Shown one piece after another: positions 4,374 through 47,384 of a DNA stretch of 55,890 bases. A program made the position numbers and the translations under genes. Source of the DNA: a virus (taxonomy: Duplodnaviria; Heunggongvirae; Uroviricota; Caudoviricetes); the IMG/VR virus record IMGVR_UViG_3300044719_000150. One strand, written 5' to 3'. How positions within the stretch are numbered: the stretch's first letter is position 1; the number at the start of each line of letters is the position of its first letter. Below the pieces are notes generated by a model. The model was given only the letters and a program-made list of their open reading frames with translations. It was not told the origin of the DNA and did not search any database.

Positions 4374-4422
4374 CCCGGCGGCGCGGCCACCTTGGGTGAC
4401 GGATGCCTACGGAGCCGCCGGG
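4374..4422 (-). ncRNA. tigRNA-like unit with a degenerate first box, followed by TTTT; probably also terminates the RNA ligase transcript
   Basis: CCCGGCGG-ctcc-gtaggcatc-CG-tcac-CCA-aggtggccg-CG-CCGCCGGG-cTTTT. Confidence 0.65.
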
Positions 4423-5692: not shown

Positions 5693-5734
5693 GTCGGCGT
5701 AGACATCTTGGATCTTGAGAAGTGAATGGCCGAC
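5693..5734 (-). ncRNA. tigRNA-like guide unit
   Basis: GTCGG-CCA-ttcacttct-CA-agat-CCA-agatgtcta-CG-CCGAC. Confidence 0.8.
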
Positions 5735-20173: not shown

Positions 20174-20761
20174 ATGAGTACATCATGTAGTGTTGATGAC
20201 TGCGGGAAAGTGGTCTTTGCGCGCGGCTGGTGCCAGGGCCACTACACCCGCTGGTTGAAGTATGGGGACGTTCAATCCGGCCTCAAGCTGACCTCGAAGA
20301 TTCGCGGTGACGCCGAGGCGCGCTTCTTTCAGAAGGTCGTCAAGACTGGACCGGTGCCAGCACAACGGCCCGAGCTTGGTGCCTGTTGGCTATGGAGGGG
20401 CGCTTCCATGACCGGCTATGGGCGCCTGAAGATTGATAACGAATACAGGTTGGCCCATCGCCTGTCCTACGAATGGTTCTGTGGGCCCATTGGAGAAGGT
20501 CTGACGATCGACCACCTCTGTCGTGTCACGCTCTGCGTCAATCCAGCGCATCTGGAAGCAGTCTCCGCTGGAGAGAATACGCGCCGCGCCGCACAAGCGA
20601 GAACTGCGTGCAAGAATGGGCATGAATATACCGAAGACAATGTCCGTACGTGGTCGCGTGGCAAGAGGGTCGCGAGGGTCTGTCGAAAATGCAGAACTGA
20701 GCGTGCACAAAGGAACCGTGACCTGCTACTTGAAGCGATAGCAAGAGAGGGTAAGGATTAG
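20174..20761 (+). mobile_element. HNH homing endonuclease gene (HNH_3 type) between tail tube and chaperone genes
   Basis: CWLWRG...GYGRL...AHRLSY...IDHLCRVTLCVNPAHLEAVSAGEN; visibly lower GC. Confidence 0.9.
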
Positions 20762-35193: not shown

Positions 35194-35352
35194 TTGCGGC
35201 GGTCTTGCTCTGGTTGTCGAGTGTGGGATGGCCGCAGCGGGGTCATCGTGGTCCTGCGTACGTATTATGGCTGCGGCGCGGTTATCCTGACCCTCATGAG
35301 CGGTATGGCCACAGCGTAAGATCCTTGGGATGCGGTGCGGGACTGGCTGCGG
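35194..35352 (-). ncRNA. Four-unit tigRNA-like (TIGR-type) array, 38-39 nt period
   Basis: ccgcag-CCA-gtcccgcac-CG-catc-CCA-aggatctta-CG-ctgtgg-CCA-taccgctca-TG-aggg-TCA-ggataaccg-CG-ccgcag-CCA-taatacgta-CG-cagga-CCA-cgatgaccc-CG-ctgcgg-CCA-tcccacact-CG-acaa-CCA-gagcaagac-CG-ccgcaa. Confidence 0.92.
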
Positions 35353-35364
35353 CTAACGTATCAC
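35353..35364 (-). promoter_or_regulatory. Recurrent motif GTGATACGTTAG abutting the four-unit array
   Basis: Exact motif; overlaps the TGA stop of 35361-35720. Confidence 0.7.
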
Positions 35365-35720
35365 AGAGTCAGTCCGCCCTGCTCCTTTTTCGGGGCTTCG
35401 ATGTCGAACAGCCCGCCGCCGAACTCCGACCGCCGCGCCTCAATCCTCGGCTTCGCCTCCATGTGCGCCTTGCGGCACGGCTGGCACAGGCCCTTGAGGT
35501 TCGCGTACGACCAGTTGGTGTCGTTGTAGTCCAGGTGCACGATCTCCAGCTTGACCCGCAGGCCGTCGCGCAGAGGATGCCCGTGAGGCTCGACGGCCCG
35601 GCAGCGGTCTTTGTGCTGCCCGCAGCCGCCGAGACACTCACAGCGCCGCTTGGCGCGATCAGCCACGATCTCCATCGTGATCCGGCCTTTGTCCGGGGGG
35701 ATCGCCGGTCGCCTCGCCAC
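35361..35720 (-). CDS. Small HNH-like zinc-binding endonuclease
   Basis: RAKRRCEC...C...LEIVHLDYNDTNWSYANLKGLCQPC; GTG start after GGAGGAG. Confidence 0.7.
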   Translation of the reverse strand: MARRPAIPPDKGRITMEIVADRAKRRCECLGGCGQHKDRCRAVEPHGHPLRDGLRVKLEIVHLDYNDTNWSYANLKGLCQPCRKAHMEAKPRIEARRSEFGGGLFDIEAPKKEQGGLTL

Positions 35721-36075
35721 GCTCTTGCTCCTCCGCTTGCCGTGCTGCCCGCTCCAGCAGTTCGACGACTTCCTCGGCCGTGCGCCCTGGAGTGTCGTTG
35801 AAAGCGTACAGGGTTTCAAAGCCTGGCAGCAGGCCGTTGACGAACACCCGCGCCATATCGGCGAGATCCATGCCTTCCGGAGTGTCGCCGATGCCGACCG
35901 GCGAGCCGGTGGTCGCGAGATTGATCGCGCCGACCGCGCACAGGCACGCGCCAGGAATCGCGTTGCCGCCGTCGTCGTACAACGTCCAGTCCTTCTGGAT
36001 GAAGCCGCGCACACGGATCAGCTCAGCCGCCCGCCAGAGCGCTTCCGGCAGAGTGCTGGCCAGCGCGTCAAGCAT
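35659..36075 (-). CDS. DUF6197-like actinophage protein
   Basis: AAELIRVRGFIQ...CAVGAI...FNDTPGRTAEEVVELLERAA. Confidence 0.7.
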   Translation of the reverse strand: MLDALASTLPEALWRAAELIRVRGFIQKDWTLYDDGGNAIPGACLCAVGAINLATTGSPVGIGDTPEGMDLADMARVFVNGLLPGFETLYAFNDTPGRTAEEVVELLERAARQAEEQERGEATGDPPGQRPDHDGDRG

Positions 36076-36955
36076 TGCGCTCCTCGTGCAGGCGCTTGCC
36101 CTCCAGCCACAGGTCGCGCAGGATCTCCTTGCTCATCTTGCGCATCGCGCGGGCGTGCTGGTGTCCGGCCGACAGTGGCGAACCGGCGAGGGCGGGCTTG
36201 CCGGAGGGGCCGCAGCGCTTGCAGTCCATCCGGTGCACGCCGTCCGCGTACTTGGCGCGGGTCTCGTCGTAGATGCGCCGATAGGGCGAGCAGTCGCAGC
36301 CGGACTGGTGCTTGACCGTCCCATCCTCCTGCTTGCAGCCCTTCTCCAACTGCTTGAGGCAAGCCTCCGCGATGAGGTAGACGCGCATCTTCGCGGCGTC
36401 ATTCCAGTTGGACTTGACGCCCTTGCGCCGGTGCGGGGCGATGCCGAGGTCGCCGGGCGGCAGGCCCTGTTCGCGCGGCACGACCTCCAGCGTCGCCGGA
36501 TCGATGCGCCACACGCCGTAGCCGCAGAAGCTCCACAGCTCGGAGACCAGGCGCGGCCGGTTGAAGATCGGATGCCAGTACGGGTCGCCGATCGCGGCGA
36601 GCAGCCGACCGCCCTGCTTGAGGCCGATGCCCTTGGTCTTCTTCACCCAGGGGCCGAGCGGATGCTGCTTGACGCCCTGCTCCAGGGATTTGACCGCGAG
36701 CGTCTCGGCCTCGCGCAGGGTGGCGACGATCTCCACGAGGCGCGCGACGGCCGGATGGCCCTCGTCCAGCCCGAACCCGCGCATCTCCCCGTCCTCGTCG
36801 GGCTCGGTGCGGGTGAACTGGCGCAGCCGGTTCTCGGTGGCGATGCGCAACTTCTCTAGGTCGGTCAGGGTGTCCGCGTGGACGGCGAGCATCGCGTCCT
36901 CGGGCCTTCGCGGGACAGGCTGGACAACGACAGGTTCCATGGTGGCTGTGGTCAT
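36068..36955 (-). CDS. tasA: TasA-like Nop-domain protein (IS110/Nop56-58 related) with no RuvC or HNH nuclease domain
   Basis: Coiled coil (LEKLRIATENRL), then KGIG...GRLLAAIGDP, LWSFCGYG, RRKGVKSNWN, YRRIYDETRAKY and HARAMRKMSKEILRDLW, resembling the IS110 C-terminal half; no N-terminal DEDD domain; CCA-N9-CG array directly upstream. Confidence 0.85.
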   Translation of the reverse strand: MTTATMEPVVVQPVPRRPEDAMLAVHADTLTDLEKLRIATENRLRQFTRTEPDEDGEMRGFGLDEGHPAVARLVEIVATLREAETLAVKSLEQGVKQHPLGPWVKKTKGIGLKQGGRLLAAIGDPYWHPIFNRPRLVSELWSFCGYGVWRIDPATLEVVPREQGLPPGDLGIAPHRRKGVKSNWNDAAKMRVYLIAEACLKQLEKGCKQEDGTVKHQSGCDCSPYRRIYDETRAKYADGVHRMDCKRCGPSGKPALAGSPLSAGHQHARAMRKMSKEILRDLWLEGKRLHEERNA

Positions 36956-36976
36956 GGGGTGCTCCCTTCGGTGAGT

Positions 36977-37084
36977 GCGGCGTTACGGCAATGGGTGGCG
37001 CTAGGCAGTGGCCGCGTGTGCTGAGTGGGCTCTGAAGCGGGTTTGGCGGCTGATGTCTGGTCTTGCGAAGGAGGTATGGCCGCG
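36977..37084 (-). ncRNA. Three-unit compact TIGR-type array directly upstream of the TasA-like gene
   Basis: cgcgg-CCA-tacctcctt-CG-caaga-CCA-gacatcagc-CG-CCA-aacccgctt-CA-gagc-CCA-ctcagcaca-CG-cgg-CCA-ctgcctag-CG-ccac-CCA-ttgccgtaa-CG-ccgc; 33-35 nt period. Confidence 0.85.
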
Positions 37085-37086
37085 CT

Positions 37087-37617
37087 CTAGAGTTCTTCGG
37101 GCACGCCCGTCGAGCCGTCGGGAAGCGTGCCGAGCAGGGTGCGCAGCGTCTCGACACTCAGGGCGCCGACGACCTCGCGGCCCTCCAGGATCAGGTTGTC
37201 GCGCAGGCGCTCGTAGCGCTCGGCCTTGCCGATGAAGCGCGCGGCGCGGGCCCGCAAGTCCTTGGCCATGTGCTCCAGGTCGTCCCGCGTGCAGTCCGCG
37301 AGGCGCTTGTGCCCGGCGACGGTCATGACACGGTCTTCCAGGACTTGCCGCCACCACTCGGTGATGCCGGTGACCTTCGCGGAGCGAGTGAGCACCTGCT
37401 GTGCCGACGGGGGCGTGGTGAACGCGCGCTCGGCCGCCATGCGCTGGCGCACGTAGCCGGGCAGAATCGAGACCAGGACTTCCCGCCACTGGTTGGCAGG
37501 AAGGTCATCGACGATGCAGCGGGCGATCTCGTCCGGATCGCTCAGGTCGGTCTCGCTCAGGATGCGCCGGACGCGGCCAGCGAGGTCCATGGGGCGCACG
37601 GGTTCTTCAATTAGCAC
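37087..37617 (-). CDS. Hypothetical protein; candidate TasA partner
   Basis: 176 aa; SAKVTGI...WRQVLEDRV...KRLADCTRDDL; its stop abuts the array. Confidence 0.7.
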   Translation of the reverse strand: MLIEEPVRPMDLAGRVRRILSETDLSDPDEIARCIVDDLPANQWREVLVSILPGYVRQRMAAERAFTTPPSAQQVLTRSAKVTGITEWWRQVLEDRVMTVAGHKRLADCTRDDLEHMAKDLRARAARFIGKAERYERLRDNLILEGREVVGALSVETLRTLLGTLPDGSTGVPEEL

Positions 37618-37685
37618 AGTAAGTGACTCCTCCCTGGTTGCCTACGGTTAACGTACCATGGACAGCCAGGGAGGCGCAACATACG

Positions 37686-37982
37686 TTAGTCCCCGACGAC
37701 GGCGAGGATGTCGTACGGGTTGAGCAGCCGATACTTCTCCCCGCCGCGCTCGATCTCCTGGCCGACGCTGCGGTTGATCAGAACCGTCTGGCCGACCTGC
37801 ACCTCCGGCTTGACCAGCGCGCCGCCGTCCGTGATGCGGCCCGGCCCGGTCGCCACCACGCGCACCTCGGCCAGCGGGGCGACGCTCTGCGGCACAATCA
37901 GGCCGCCGACCTTGTGCTCCGCCTCGTTGACCGGCGCCAGCGTCAGGATGCGCTCTCCACACGGAGCGATGTCAATCGTCAT
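37686..37982 (-). CDS. groES: GroES/Cpn10-like co-chaperonin
   Basis: PCGERIL...GGLIVP...VVATGPG...EVQVGQTVL...GQEI...KYRLL...DILAVV. Confidence 0.9.
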   Translation of the reverse strand: MTIDIAPCGERILTLAPVNEAEHKVGGLIVPQSVAPLAEVRVVATGPGRITDGGALVKPEVQVGQTVLINRSVGQEIERGGEKYRLLNPYDILAVVGD

Positions 37983-46386: not shown

Positions 46387-46839
46387 ATGGCGGGCGACAC
46401 GTCCATCACGCTTGAGGGCAGCCTGACGAGGGATCCAGAGGTCTCATTCGGCAAGTCCGGCAAGGCGTGGACACGCTTCGCCGTCGCCGTCAACTCGCGC
46501 CGCAAGACACAGGACGGCAAGTGGGAGGATGGCGAGGCCGCGTTCTGGGAGTGCTCCGCGTTCGGTCCGATCGCCGAGAACATCGCCGAGAGCCTGCACA
46601 AGGGCGACCGGGTGATTGTAGTGGGCACACTGCGTCCGGACGTTTACAAAGACAAGGAGGGCAACGACAGGCGCTCGATCAAGGTGATCGTCAGCAACGC
46701 CGGTCCTTCCCTCCTGTTCGCCACGGCCACCGTCGCCAAGACACAGCGGGGGGGCGGGCAGCAGGCCCAGGGCGGGCAGCAGACCGGCTACGGCGACGAT
46801 CCCTGGACTGCGGCCTACGACGACACCCCGCCCTTCTGA
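46387..46839 (+). CDS. ssb: Single-stranded DNA-binding protein
   Basis: ITLEGSLTRDPE...FAVAVN...FWECSAF...AENIAESLHKGDRVIVVG; acidic C-terminal DDTPPF. Confidence 0.95.
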   Translation: MAGDTSITLEGSLTRDPEVSFGKSGKAWTRFAVAVNSRRKTQDGKWEDGEAAFWECSAFGPIAENIAESLHKGDRVIVVGTLRPDVYKDKEGNDRRSIKVIVSNAGPSLLFATATVAKTQRGGGQQAQGGQQTGYGDDPWTAAYDDTPPF

Positions 46840-47384
46840 GCGGGCGGCATCGTGCGGGGAGGCGGGAGCGCTGGCGCGAGTTTGCGCGCCAGCTCCCGCG
46901 CCTCATCCAAGCGGCTATAGCGGACCAGGTGCACGAGCCGCGCCATGGCGGCGAAGGTGGCGCGCGGGAGCACCACCGATTCGTCGTCGGCCAGGTCTGT
47001 CGGCAGCCAGCCGCGCCGGTACAGCGCCACGGCCAGCTCTGAGCGGTTGGCCACTCCCAGCCGGACCAGCGCGTTCCTCAGATGCGTTTTGACCGTGTGC
47101 TCCGAAATGCCCAGCTCTTCGGATATCCGCAGGTTGCTGTGGCCTTGGGTGACCAGGAGAGCCACGTCCCACTCGCGCTCGGTCAGCGGGCACGAGCGGG
47201 GGCGCTCCAGGACGGCGCGCGTATGCTCCCGCATCTCGCGCCGGACCGCCCTGCCCCCGCGCATCGCGGAGAGCTTGTCGAGATAAGCCTCGCGCATGGG
47301 TTCGCATTGGGGGCAGATGGCCTGATGGAGGGACTGGTGCCTGCGCAGACCGTCGATGGTGCCGCAGCTCTCGTGGCTTTTCAT
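46815..47384 (-). CDS. LuxR-family HTH regulator with an N-terminal Cys/His motif
   Basis: PLTEREWDVALLVTQGHSNLRISEELGISEHTVKTHLRNALVRLG; CGT...RH...CPQC; no receiver domain. Confidence 0.85.
   Translation of the reverse strand: MKSHESCGTIDGLRRHQSLHQAICPQCEPMREAYLDKLSAMRGGRAVRREMREHTRAVLERPRSCPLTEREWDVALLVTQGHSNLRISEELGISEHTVKTHLRNALVRLGVANRSELAVALYRRGWLPTDLADDESVVLPRATFAAMARLVHLVRYSRLDEARELARKLAPALPPPRTMPPAQKGGVSS

What the first reader, a model, noticed from the sequence alone, without database searches (positions are those of the whole stretch)
36068..37084. TasA-like gene with a compact three-unit array immediately upstream
The array fills the gap between the stop of 37087-37617 and the tasA RBS, so guides and protein are probably co-transcribed. 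Its units are the most compressed and degenerate (33-35 nt period, one 8-nt spacer, one CA box). The protein has two Cys-rich inserts (C-x6-C...H-x3-CDC and H-x3-CKRC) that I do not expect in a minimal Nop domain; they could bind metal or a partner.
Basis: partly seen in the sequence, partly recalled or inferred. Interest (0 to 1): 0.75.

Follow-up and report, generated by a model that had tools for sequence, protein, structure and literature searches.

The report
Phage TasA gene with compressed guide array
This phage gene encodes a nuclease-free RNA-guided DNA-binding protein (TasA) preceded by three tightly packed guide-RNA units; the system type was published in 2025, but here the guides have almost no stems, the protein has probable metal-binding cysteine clusters, and an unknown partner gene always lies upstream.

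Summary
ORF 36068-36955(-) is a 295-aa solo Nop-domain protein. A profile of it hits TaTasR (PDB 9MTY, E 1.8e-21) and TasH. Its high-confidence model matches TasR and TasH first, then IS621 and Nop5. It has no nuclease domain.

The 131-nt gap upstream holds three in-phase CCA-N9-CG-N4/5-CCA-N9-CG units. U1 is perfect but has no closing arm. U2 has a CA box. U3 has an 8-nt spacer. Junctions are 0 to 3 nt. Such a chain is expected 0.01 times per window.

Five close relatives carry arrays at the same place with other spacers, and about 70 more distant phage loci do too, including cultured Mycobacterium phage Bethlehem.

New here:
- The upstream ORF 37087-37617(-) (PHROG 4604, no known fold) sits directly before tasA in 78 of 80 loci, and the link holds in reverse.
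- H241-x3-C245-x2-C248 is family-wide. The C207...H216...C220-x-C222 insert occurs in 14 of 79 homologues.

No target was found. Expression could not be tested.

This is a stem-loop TIGR-TasA system with a compressed array. This scan has found TIGR-TasA on other DNA before and has already noted a partner gene.

The parts
37681..37692 (-). Phage promoter-core motif GGACTAACGTAT, the nearest candidate promoter for the operon partner gene - array - tasA
   Evidence: Exact match. 12 copies in the window against 0.96 expected. No further copy, sigma-70-like site or terminator down to tasA.
37087..37617 (-). Conserved partner gene (176 aa, PHROG 4604, unknown function and fold)
   Evidence: phrog_4604 E 1.3e-21. 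Homologous to Bethlehem gp72. An HMM of it hits the ORF just upstream of tasA in 78 of 80 loci. It is the only family besides TasA shared by more than 9 of 62 non-redundant loci. No Pfam, PDB sequence or fold match.
37080..37086 (-). Flank AGCGCGG after the stop codon; the opening arm of U1 (GCGCGG is also the arm of the units at 2256 and 226)
37047..37079 (-). Guide unit U1: CCA tacctcctt CG caaga CCA gacatcagc CG. Boxes are perfect. It has no 3' arm of its own and abuts U2 with 0 nt between them.
   Evidence: Strict pattern hit. Covariance model 12.4 bits, local match.
37015..37046 (-). Guide unit U2: CCA aacccgctt CA gagc CCA ctcagcaca CG. Its 4-bp closing helix is borrowed from the end of U1 and from the CGG edge plus the first C of U3.
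   Evidence: Covariance model 22.3 bits. The fold forms this helix.
37012..37014 (-). 3-nt edge CGG shared by U2 and U3
   Evidence: In relative L006 such edges alternate CGG and CCG through seven units.
36981..37011 (-). Guide unit U3: CCA ctgcctag CG ccac CCA ttgccgtaa CG (8-nt spacer A). Spacer B resembles spacers in L004 and L003.
   Evidence: Covariance model 16.9 bits.
36977..36980 (-). Closing arm CCGC of U3. It also pairs with the flank before U1.
36962..36969 (-). Ribosome-binding site GAAGGGAG of tasA
   Evidence: read directly from the sequence.
36068..36955 (-). tasA: 295-aa solo Nop-domain TIGR-associated protein without a nuclease domain
36665..36904 (-). Coiled-coil region (residues 18-97, two long helices), the dimerisation scaffold in solved Tas proteins
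   Evidence: Model helices 18-48 and 68-97. The role is inferred from 9MTY and the PlTasA description (PMC12045711; bioRxiv 10.64898/2026.08.11.744272).
36290..36361 (-). Cys/His cluster C199-x7-C207...H216-x3-C220-x-C222. C199 is widely conserved; the rest is a clade-specific insert.
36212..36235 (-). H241-x3-C245-x2-C248 knuckle-like element, invariant in 45 close homologues
   Evidence: TaTasR has no counterpart in the alignment.

Best explanation
This is a TIGR-TasA system of the stem-loop class, in a clade carried by phages of high-GC actinobacteria.

One operon reads: promoter motif at 37681-37692, partner gene, three guide units, tasA. The primary transcript carries the three dual-spacer units in the 5' leader of tasA.

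Inferred steps. [quoted passage not shown] The units are trimmed into guides of roughly 33-40 nt. Each ribonucleoprotein binds double-stranded DNA in which spacer A pairs with one strand and spacer B with the other. Having no nuclease, TasA should block transcription or replication at the target, as shown for other TasA proteins.

The same protein presumably also serves the roughly 23 long-stemmed units scattered through the window.

The array here is a compressed form. Neighbouring units share 0-3-nt edges, so their closing helices (3-5 bp with the box C:D pair) exclude each other. They resemble the short terminal pairing of dual-repeat guides more than a stem-loop.

The Cys/His clusters most likely bind zinc and stiffen peripheral hairpins near the guide. 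The conserved partner protein most likely acts in the same pathway, for example in guide maturation or loading, or as an effector.
For: Shown here:
- Homology of the protein to solved Tas proteins by sequence and fold.
- No nuclease domain.
- Three units with the correct boxes, far above chance as a chain.
- Arrays at the same place between the same two genes in L001 and L003-L006. Boxes and edges are conserved. Spacers are only 24-49% identical, while third codon positions of tasA are 61-67% identical.
- Arrays between the partner gene and tasA in most of 73 viral loci and in Bethlehem.
- No promoter or terminator inside the operon.
- The partner is linked to TasA in 78 of 80 loci, and in 3 of 3 informative reverse samples.
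- H241/C245/C248 are invariant in close homologues.

From the literature:
- TasA binds DNA by guide and represses transcription (bioRxiv 10.64898/2026.09.09.750476; PMC12045711).
Against: - No expression or processing data exist for this locus.
- U1 and U3 score at noise level with a model trained on the long-stem units, so one or more units may not mature.
- No target was found for any of 26 guides in the window. The 307 guides of the family had no more near-matches in the DNA held than decoys.
- Zinc binding and the partner's role are inferences only.
Confidence: 0.8

Rival explanations
1. The three units are decaying relics that no longer yield working guides. They now serve mainly in cis, as TasA-binding or RNase-processing sites in the tasA leader. 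These would set tasA translation (autoregulation) or uncouple it from the upstream gene.
For: These are the lowest-scoring units of the window (12-22 bits against 23-44). There is a zero-length junction between U1 and U2, a CA box and an 8-nt spacer. The position in the tasA leader is kept in nearly all relatives, which would also fit a cis role.
Against: Close relatives keep three units (seven in L006) with perfect boxes while the spacers change faster than silent sites. That is what selection on guides would give, not selection on a fixed binding site. A CA box also occurs in a well-stemmed unit at 5698. Dual-repeat guides work with only about 2 terminal pairs (PMC12045711).
Confidence: 0.15
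2. The guides act on RNA rather than DNA, in the manner of box C/D ribonucleoproteins. For example they might pair with ribosome-binding sites, since spacer A of U1 is complementary to AAGGAGGTA.
For: The Nop domain is shared with box C/D proteins. A few spacers are complementary to Shine-Dalgarno-like sequences.
Against: Across 267 non-redundant units, CCTCC (5) is no commoner than GGAGG (3), and spacer composition is near background. No fibrillarin or L7Ae partner is evident. Tested TasA proteins bind double-stranded DNA (bioRxiv 10.64898/2026.09.09.750476 and 10.64898/2026.08.11.744272).
Confidence: 0.03
3. The gene is a fragment of an IS110-family transposase, and the upstream RNA is a degenerate bridge RNA.
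For: PHROG 4285 and several GenBank records call the family 'transposase'. IS621 is a structural match.
Against: There is no DEDD/RuvC domain in the protein or in the upstream ORF. TasR and TasH match better than IS621. The gene sits at a fixed syntenic place in many phages with tandem dual-spacer units, not one bridge RNA.
Confidence: 0.02

Closest known systems
Stem-loop TIGR-TasA systems (PlTasA from a Peromyscus leucopus gut contig, BlTasA of Bifidobacterium longum, MbTasA; Faure et al. 2025, PMC12045711; Xu et al. 2026, bioRxiv 10.64898/2026.09.09.750476; Guan et al. 2026, bioRxiv 10.64898/2026.08.11.744272)
   Same: A solo Nop-domain protein with a coiled coil and no nuclease. [quoted passage not shown] The array lies upstream of tas. 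Relatives also carry units inside the tas coding sequence, as in BlTasA. The expected action is RNA-guided DNA binding and repression.
   Different: At this array the flanking stems are 0-4 bp and are shared between neighbours, whereas the published finder requires palindromes of at least 5 bp. The protein has Cys/His clusters, and neither 'zinc' (PMC12045711) nor 'cysteine' (bioRxiv 10.64898/2026.09.09.750476) turned up in the term searches I ran. A conserved PHROG 4604 partner gene is not mentioned in those papers. Guide units are also scattered singly across the genome, each with its own promoter motif.
Dual-repeat TIGR arrays (TaTasR, PDB 9MTY; FpTasA; SpTasH)
   Same: A period of about 35 nt, with short edges and a 4-5-nt loop segment alternating with two 9-nt spacers. 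Relative L006 is a regular 8-nt edge / 9-nt loop repeat array. TaTasR is the best sequence and fold match in the PDB.
   Different: The protein belongs to a family whose other members use long stems. The edges alternate between two complementary forms (CGG and CCG) instead of being one repeat. Box D is CG, not UG. The window's own array is irregular.
IS110/IS621 bridge-RNA recombinases (PDB 8WT6, 8WT9)
   Same: A shared Nop-like RNA-binding domain and the two-part guide logic.
   Different: There is no DEDD/RuvC catalytic domain, no element ends, and tandem small units instead of one bridge RNA.
Archaeal box C/D sRNP protein Nop5 (PDB 3ID5, 3PLA)
   Same: The Nop fold, and guides bracketed by box C/D-like motifs.
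   Different: Only a weak structural match (E 0.3 or worse). No K-turn, L7Ae or fibrillarin partners are seen.

Membership tests
TIGR-Tas (Tas protein family) | Nop-domain protein homologous to characterised Tas proteins | tested here: met
   A profile of 45 homologues hits TaTasR 9MTY at E 1.8e-21 and TasH at 8e-9. Foldseek top hits are 9MTY (E 2e-8) and TasH.
TasA subtype | No HNH or RuvC nuclease domain fused to the Nop domain | tested here: met
   295 aa, with residues 1-17 disordered and the coiled coil from residue 18. No Pfam domain. The upstream ORF is a separate, mainly helical protein with one beta hairpin and no Pfam hit.
TIGR array (any class) | [quoted passage not shown] | tested here: met
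   Three in-phase units using CCA and CG/CA. A chain like this is expected 0.01 times per window. It is conserved in relatives.
Stem-loop TIGR array | Palindromic arms of at least 5 bp flanking each spacer pair (the TIGRFinder rule) | tested here: not met
   At this array the arms are 2, 4 and 4 bp and are shared. The rule is met by most other units of the window (5-9 bp) and by relatives (8-14 bp).
Dual-repeat TIGR array | Two distinct alternating 8-12-nt repeats (edge and loop) with constant spacing | tested here: inconclusive
   Relative L006 fits: edge CG-CGG/CCG-CCA and loop CG-N4-CCA at a 35-nt period. The window's array has junctions of 0 and 3 nt and loops of 5, 4 and 4 nt.
TIGR-Tas | The array is transcribed and processed into unit-length guides bound by Tas | not testable with these tools
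TIGR-Tas | Guide-dependent binding of double-stranded DNA through both spacers | not testable with these tools
   This needs biochemistry. Target searches by computer found nothing above decoys.
IS110 transposase | N-terminal DEDD/RuvC-like catalytic domain | tested here: not met
   Absent from the protein and from the upstream ORF.

The most novel reading that the evidence does not exclude
The PHROG 4604 protein encoded just upstream is the missing auxiliary factor of stem-loop TIGR-TasA systems, acting in guide maturation or loading, or in spacer turnover. The compressed array with shared edges is a natural intermediate that shows how stem-loop arrays collapse into dual-repeat arrays. One TasA, with zinc-stiffened hairpins, would then use both guide forms.
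Probability: 0.25. Interest if true: 0.75.

Novelty: new variant of a known kind. Interest (0 to 1): 0.5.

Why it matters
[quoted passage not shown] How stem-loop guides are cut out, whether auxiliary proteins take part, how spacers change, and what the natural targets are all remain open (discussion of bioRxiv 10.64898/2026.09.09.750476).

This locus offers three handles on those questions:
- An array whose units cannot all form their stems at once. Mapping the RNA ends would show what the maturation machinery really needs.
- A partner gene tied to tasA across the whole actinophage clade.
- Probable metal sites in the Nop domain.

The same module sits in cultured Mycobacterium smegmatis phages such as Bethlehem (gp72 - four units - gp71). 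There the genes are annotated as hypothetical protein, transposase or DNA-binding protein. These questions can therefore be tested in a native, tractable host.

Tried and rejected
- Direct and tandem repeat finders saw nothing in the gap. The units share only 2-3-nt boxes, so pattern scans were needed.
- Self-targets. For 26 guides of the window and both possible arrangements (A+rc(B), rc(A)+B), the best matches in the window had at least 4 of 18 mismatches, apart from one 3-mismatch overlap of a unit with its own array sequence. Bethlehem's four guides gave the same result over bases 1-50196 of its 52,250-bp genome.
- The two 18-mers of guide U1 have no exact match in the viral contig collection.
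- 307 guides of the family had 9+9 near-matches in all held DNA, against 5-12 per arrangement for decoys. This gave no signal.
- The idea that spacers aim at ribosome-binding sites is not supported.
- A complex prediction of TasA with the partner protein gave no verdict. It is not evidence either way.
- For the partner protein, Pfam, PDB sequence search, Foldseek and the wide structural search gave nothing above noise.
It was replaced by a profile search plus four context look-ups.
- The covariance model trained on long-stem units does not single out U1 or U3.

Full report
**What is at the coordinates**

The minus strand carries a 295-aa ORF (36068-36955) preceded by a 131-nt gap after the stop codon of a 176-aa ORF (37087-37617).

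Generic repeat finders report nothing in the gap. Read with the unit grammar seen elsewhere in the window, the gap resolves completely:
- Flank AGCGCGG.
- U1, 37079-37047: CCA-N9-CG-N5-CCA-N9-CG.
- U2, 37046-37015, directly abutting U1: CCA-N9-CA-N4-CCA-N9-CG.
- A 3-nt edge, CGG.
- U3, 37011-36981: CCA-N8-CG-N4-CCA-N9-CG.
- Closing arm CCGC.
- After 7 more nt, the ribosome-binding site GAAGGGAG, followed 6 nt later by the ATG.

**Is it more than chance?**

- The strict pattern occurs 18 times in the window against 1.2-1.4 in Markov shuffles.
- Units with at most one defect and at least a 4-bp stem occur 22 times against 0.89.
- A chain of three units joined by at most 3 nt occurs once, here, against 0.01 per shuffled window.

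I trained a covariance model on 14 other units of the window. It recovers held-out units at 23-31 bits. It gives U2 22.3 bits (window-wide E 0.09), U3 16.9 and U1 12.4. So these are the weakest units of the genome, and taken singly U1 and U3 would not stand out.

The strongest evidence is comparative. The five closest relatives (62-75% protein identity) came from soil and other metagenome contigs. All have the same gene order, and an array begins 1-7 nt after the upstream stop codon and ends just before the tasA ribosome-binding site:
- L003, L004 and L005 have three units.
- L001 has three or four.
- L006 has seven.

Boxes and edges are conserved. Spacers at the same ordinal position are only 24-49% identical, while third codon positions of tasA are 61-67% identical. 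Spacers therefore turn over while the frame of boxes is kept. One spacer (TTGCCG-like) recurs in the window, L004 and L003.

**The protein**

- Pfam finds nothing. PHROG 4285, labelled 'transposase', matches at 2.9e-90.
- A profile of 45 homologues hits only Tas proteins in the PDB: TaTasR (9MTY) at E 1.8e-21 and TasH at 8e-9. 9MTY is the TasR complex of Faure et al..
- The AlphaFold2 model is confident (pLDDT 90.3). It shows 17 disordered residues, two long coiled-coil helices and then the C-terminal domain.
- Foldseek ranks TasR and TasH first, then the IS621 and ISCro4 recombinases, then Nop5.

There is no nuclease domain, and the upstream ORF is not one either. By architecture the protein is a TasA.

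**The cysteine clusters**

H241, C245 and C248 are invariant in 45 close homologues, and C199 is at least 90% conserved. Across 79 family members:
- H-x3-C-x2-C is present in 66.
- The four-residue pattern C199/H241/C245/C248 is present in 46.
- 12 lack the segment.

TaTasR has no counterpart of this segment in the profile alignment. Mycobacterium phage Bethlehem gp71 has it.

The second element, C207...H216-x3-C220-x-C222, is an insert of variable length found in 14 of 79. These include four proteins that lack the first element.

Both look like small zinc knuckles on peripheral hairpins. PlTasA is reported to carry accessory hairpins around the guide-binding region (bioRxiv 10.64898/2026.08.11.744272). 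Metal binding remains an inference, because I could not read model coordinates.

**The wider family**

tblastn finds the protein in 91 cultured phage genomes, 83 of them Mycobacterium phages. In Bethlehem, the 335-nt gap between gp72 and gp71 holds four perfect units with 8-12-bp stems. They are the only such units found in the bases 1-50196 examined.

In 73 IMG/VR loci, arrays of 2-11 units lie between the upstream gene and tasA in most cases. Stems are mostly 8-14 bp and the period is about 58 nt. Units often also lie inside tasA about 360-520 nt from its start, and downstream of it. Units inside the gene match what was reported for BlTasA (bioRxiv 10.64898/2026.09.09.750476).

The box pair CCA/CG is among those the published finder uses for stem-loop arrays. 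So the system is a member of the published stem-loop TIGR-TasA kind.

**What differs here**

In the window's clade the array before tasA is compressed to a period of about 35 nt. The 3-nt edges alternate CGG and CCG (a perfect series in L006). Each edge is therefore the closing arm of one unit and the opening arm of the next, and neighbouring units cannot fold at once.

In form this approaches a dual-repeat array, although the protein family otherwise uses long stems. The same window also has long-stem units elsewhere. In the window one edge has been lost altogether, at the U1-U2 junction.

By the thresholds in the published methods none of these three units would be retained. Those thresholds are:
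- a stem of at least 5 bp for perfect motifs;
- at least 8 bp with a box variant;
- at least 13 bp with an 8-nt spacer;
- gaps of 4-5 bp in the dual-repeat pipeline.

That conclusion is my inference from the text, not a run of the tool.

**The partner gene**

The upstream ORF (PHROG 4604) is 26% identical to Bethlehem gp72 (E 2e-12).

- An HMM of it finds an ORF on the same strand directly upstream of tasA in 78 of 80 loci. One exception is truncated.
- Among 62 loci that are non-redundant at 80% TasA identity, this is the only family besides TasA found in more than 9 loci: 58 by BLAST clustering.
- The family has 2,792 representatives at 50% identity.
- I sampled four of these. The three with enough sequence have tasA just downstream with units between. 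The fourth is an 830-nt contig that ends inside a unit-bearing stretch.

The protein has no Pfam, PDB or fold match. It is predicted as a helical N-terminal part, a beta hairpin and a long helix.

The TIGR papers I read mention only a ParB-like partner of dual-repeat TasA. They state that auxiliary factors for stem-loop guide maturation are unknown. Earlier reports of this scan had already noted a conserved partner gene at other TasA loci. I confirmed it independently here.

**Transcription**

The phage's promoter-core motif lies at 37681-37692, upstream of the partner gene. No further copy, sigma-70-like site or terminator lies between it and tasA, and the gap has no free space. Co-transcription of partner gene, guides and tasA is therefore the likeliest arrangement. 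It is still an inference. By contrast, the four-unit array at 35194-35352 has its own motif.

**Targets**

No guide of the window matches the window. No Bethlehem guide matches the 50,196 bases of Bethlehem examined. The U1 composite 18-mers are absent from the viral collection. Family guides have no excess of near-matches over decoys in the DNA held. Spacer composition is near background, with no bias towards ribosome-binding sites. The natural targets remain unknown, as for most TIGR systems.

**Verdict**

This is a TIGR-TasA locus of a published kind with a variant, compressed array, probable metal-binding elements and an obligatory unknown partner gene. Interest is moderate. The kind is known and the scan has met it before. 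The locus and its cultured mycobacteriophage relatives do make open questions on guide maturation and native function testable.

Noticed in passing
L007:3160-3494 (Mycobacterium phage Bethlehem, NC_009878.1 about 46703-47037): The gap between gp72 and gp71 of this cultured cluster A phage holds four perfect CCA-N9-CG dual-spacer units with 8-12-bp stems. gp71 homologues are annotated as transposase, hypothetical protein or DNA-binding protein in 83 Mycobacterium phage records.
   Followed up: partly
L012, L014-L016, L021, L024, L041-L049 and others, about 360-520 nt into tasA: Many relatives carry one to three guide units in frame inside tasA, at the variable wedge-like loop. That loop is short (34 residues) and unit-free in the window's protein.
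   Followed up: partly
window 36981-36994(-); L004:2896-2909; L003:2959-2972: One spacer is nearly conserved between relatives (TTGCCGTAA, TTGCCGAAC, TTACCGAAC), although it sits in different units of the arrays. This hints at a shared target or a recent common origin.
   Followed up: no
window 35361-35690(-) and 35659-36075(-): tasA is followed by a DUF6197 gene whose start overlaps the tasA stop. Relatives have one to three tandem DUF6197 copies. Next comes a small HNH endonuclease gene (PHROG 1571) that ends just before the promoter motif of the four-unit array at 35194-35352.
   Followed up: no
window 54448-54480(+), 20417-20459(-), 4376-4420(-): Further candidate units. One has a 12-bp stem but CAT in place of box C. 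One lies at 20417 with 49% G+C (22 bits with the covariance model). One lies at 4376 (25 bits).
   Followed up: no
267 non-redundant units from the window and loci L001-L081: The first spacer position is A or T in about 63% of units and C in only 15%, in both spacers. The 4-nt loop nearly always ends in C (ACAC, ATAC, ATGC, ACGC, AAAC).
   Followed up: no
window 37686-37982(-) and loci L001-L006: A Cpn10 (GroES-like) gene lies just upstream of the operon. Further upstream the five related contigs carry an Lsr2-like gene, and DnaB where the fetched locus reaches that far.
   Followed up: no
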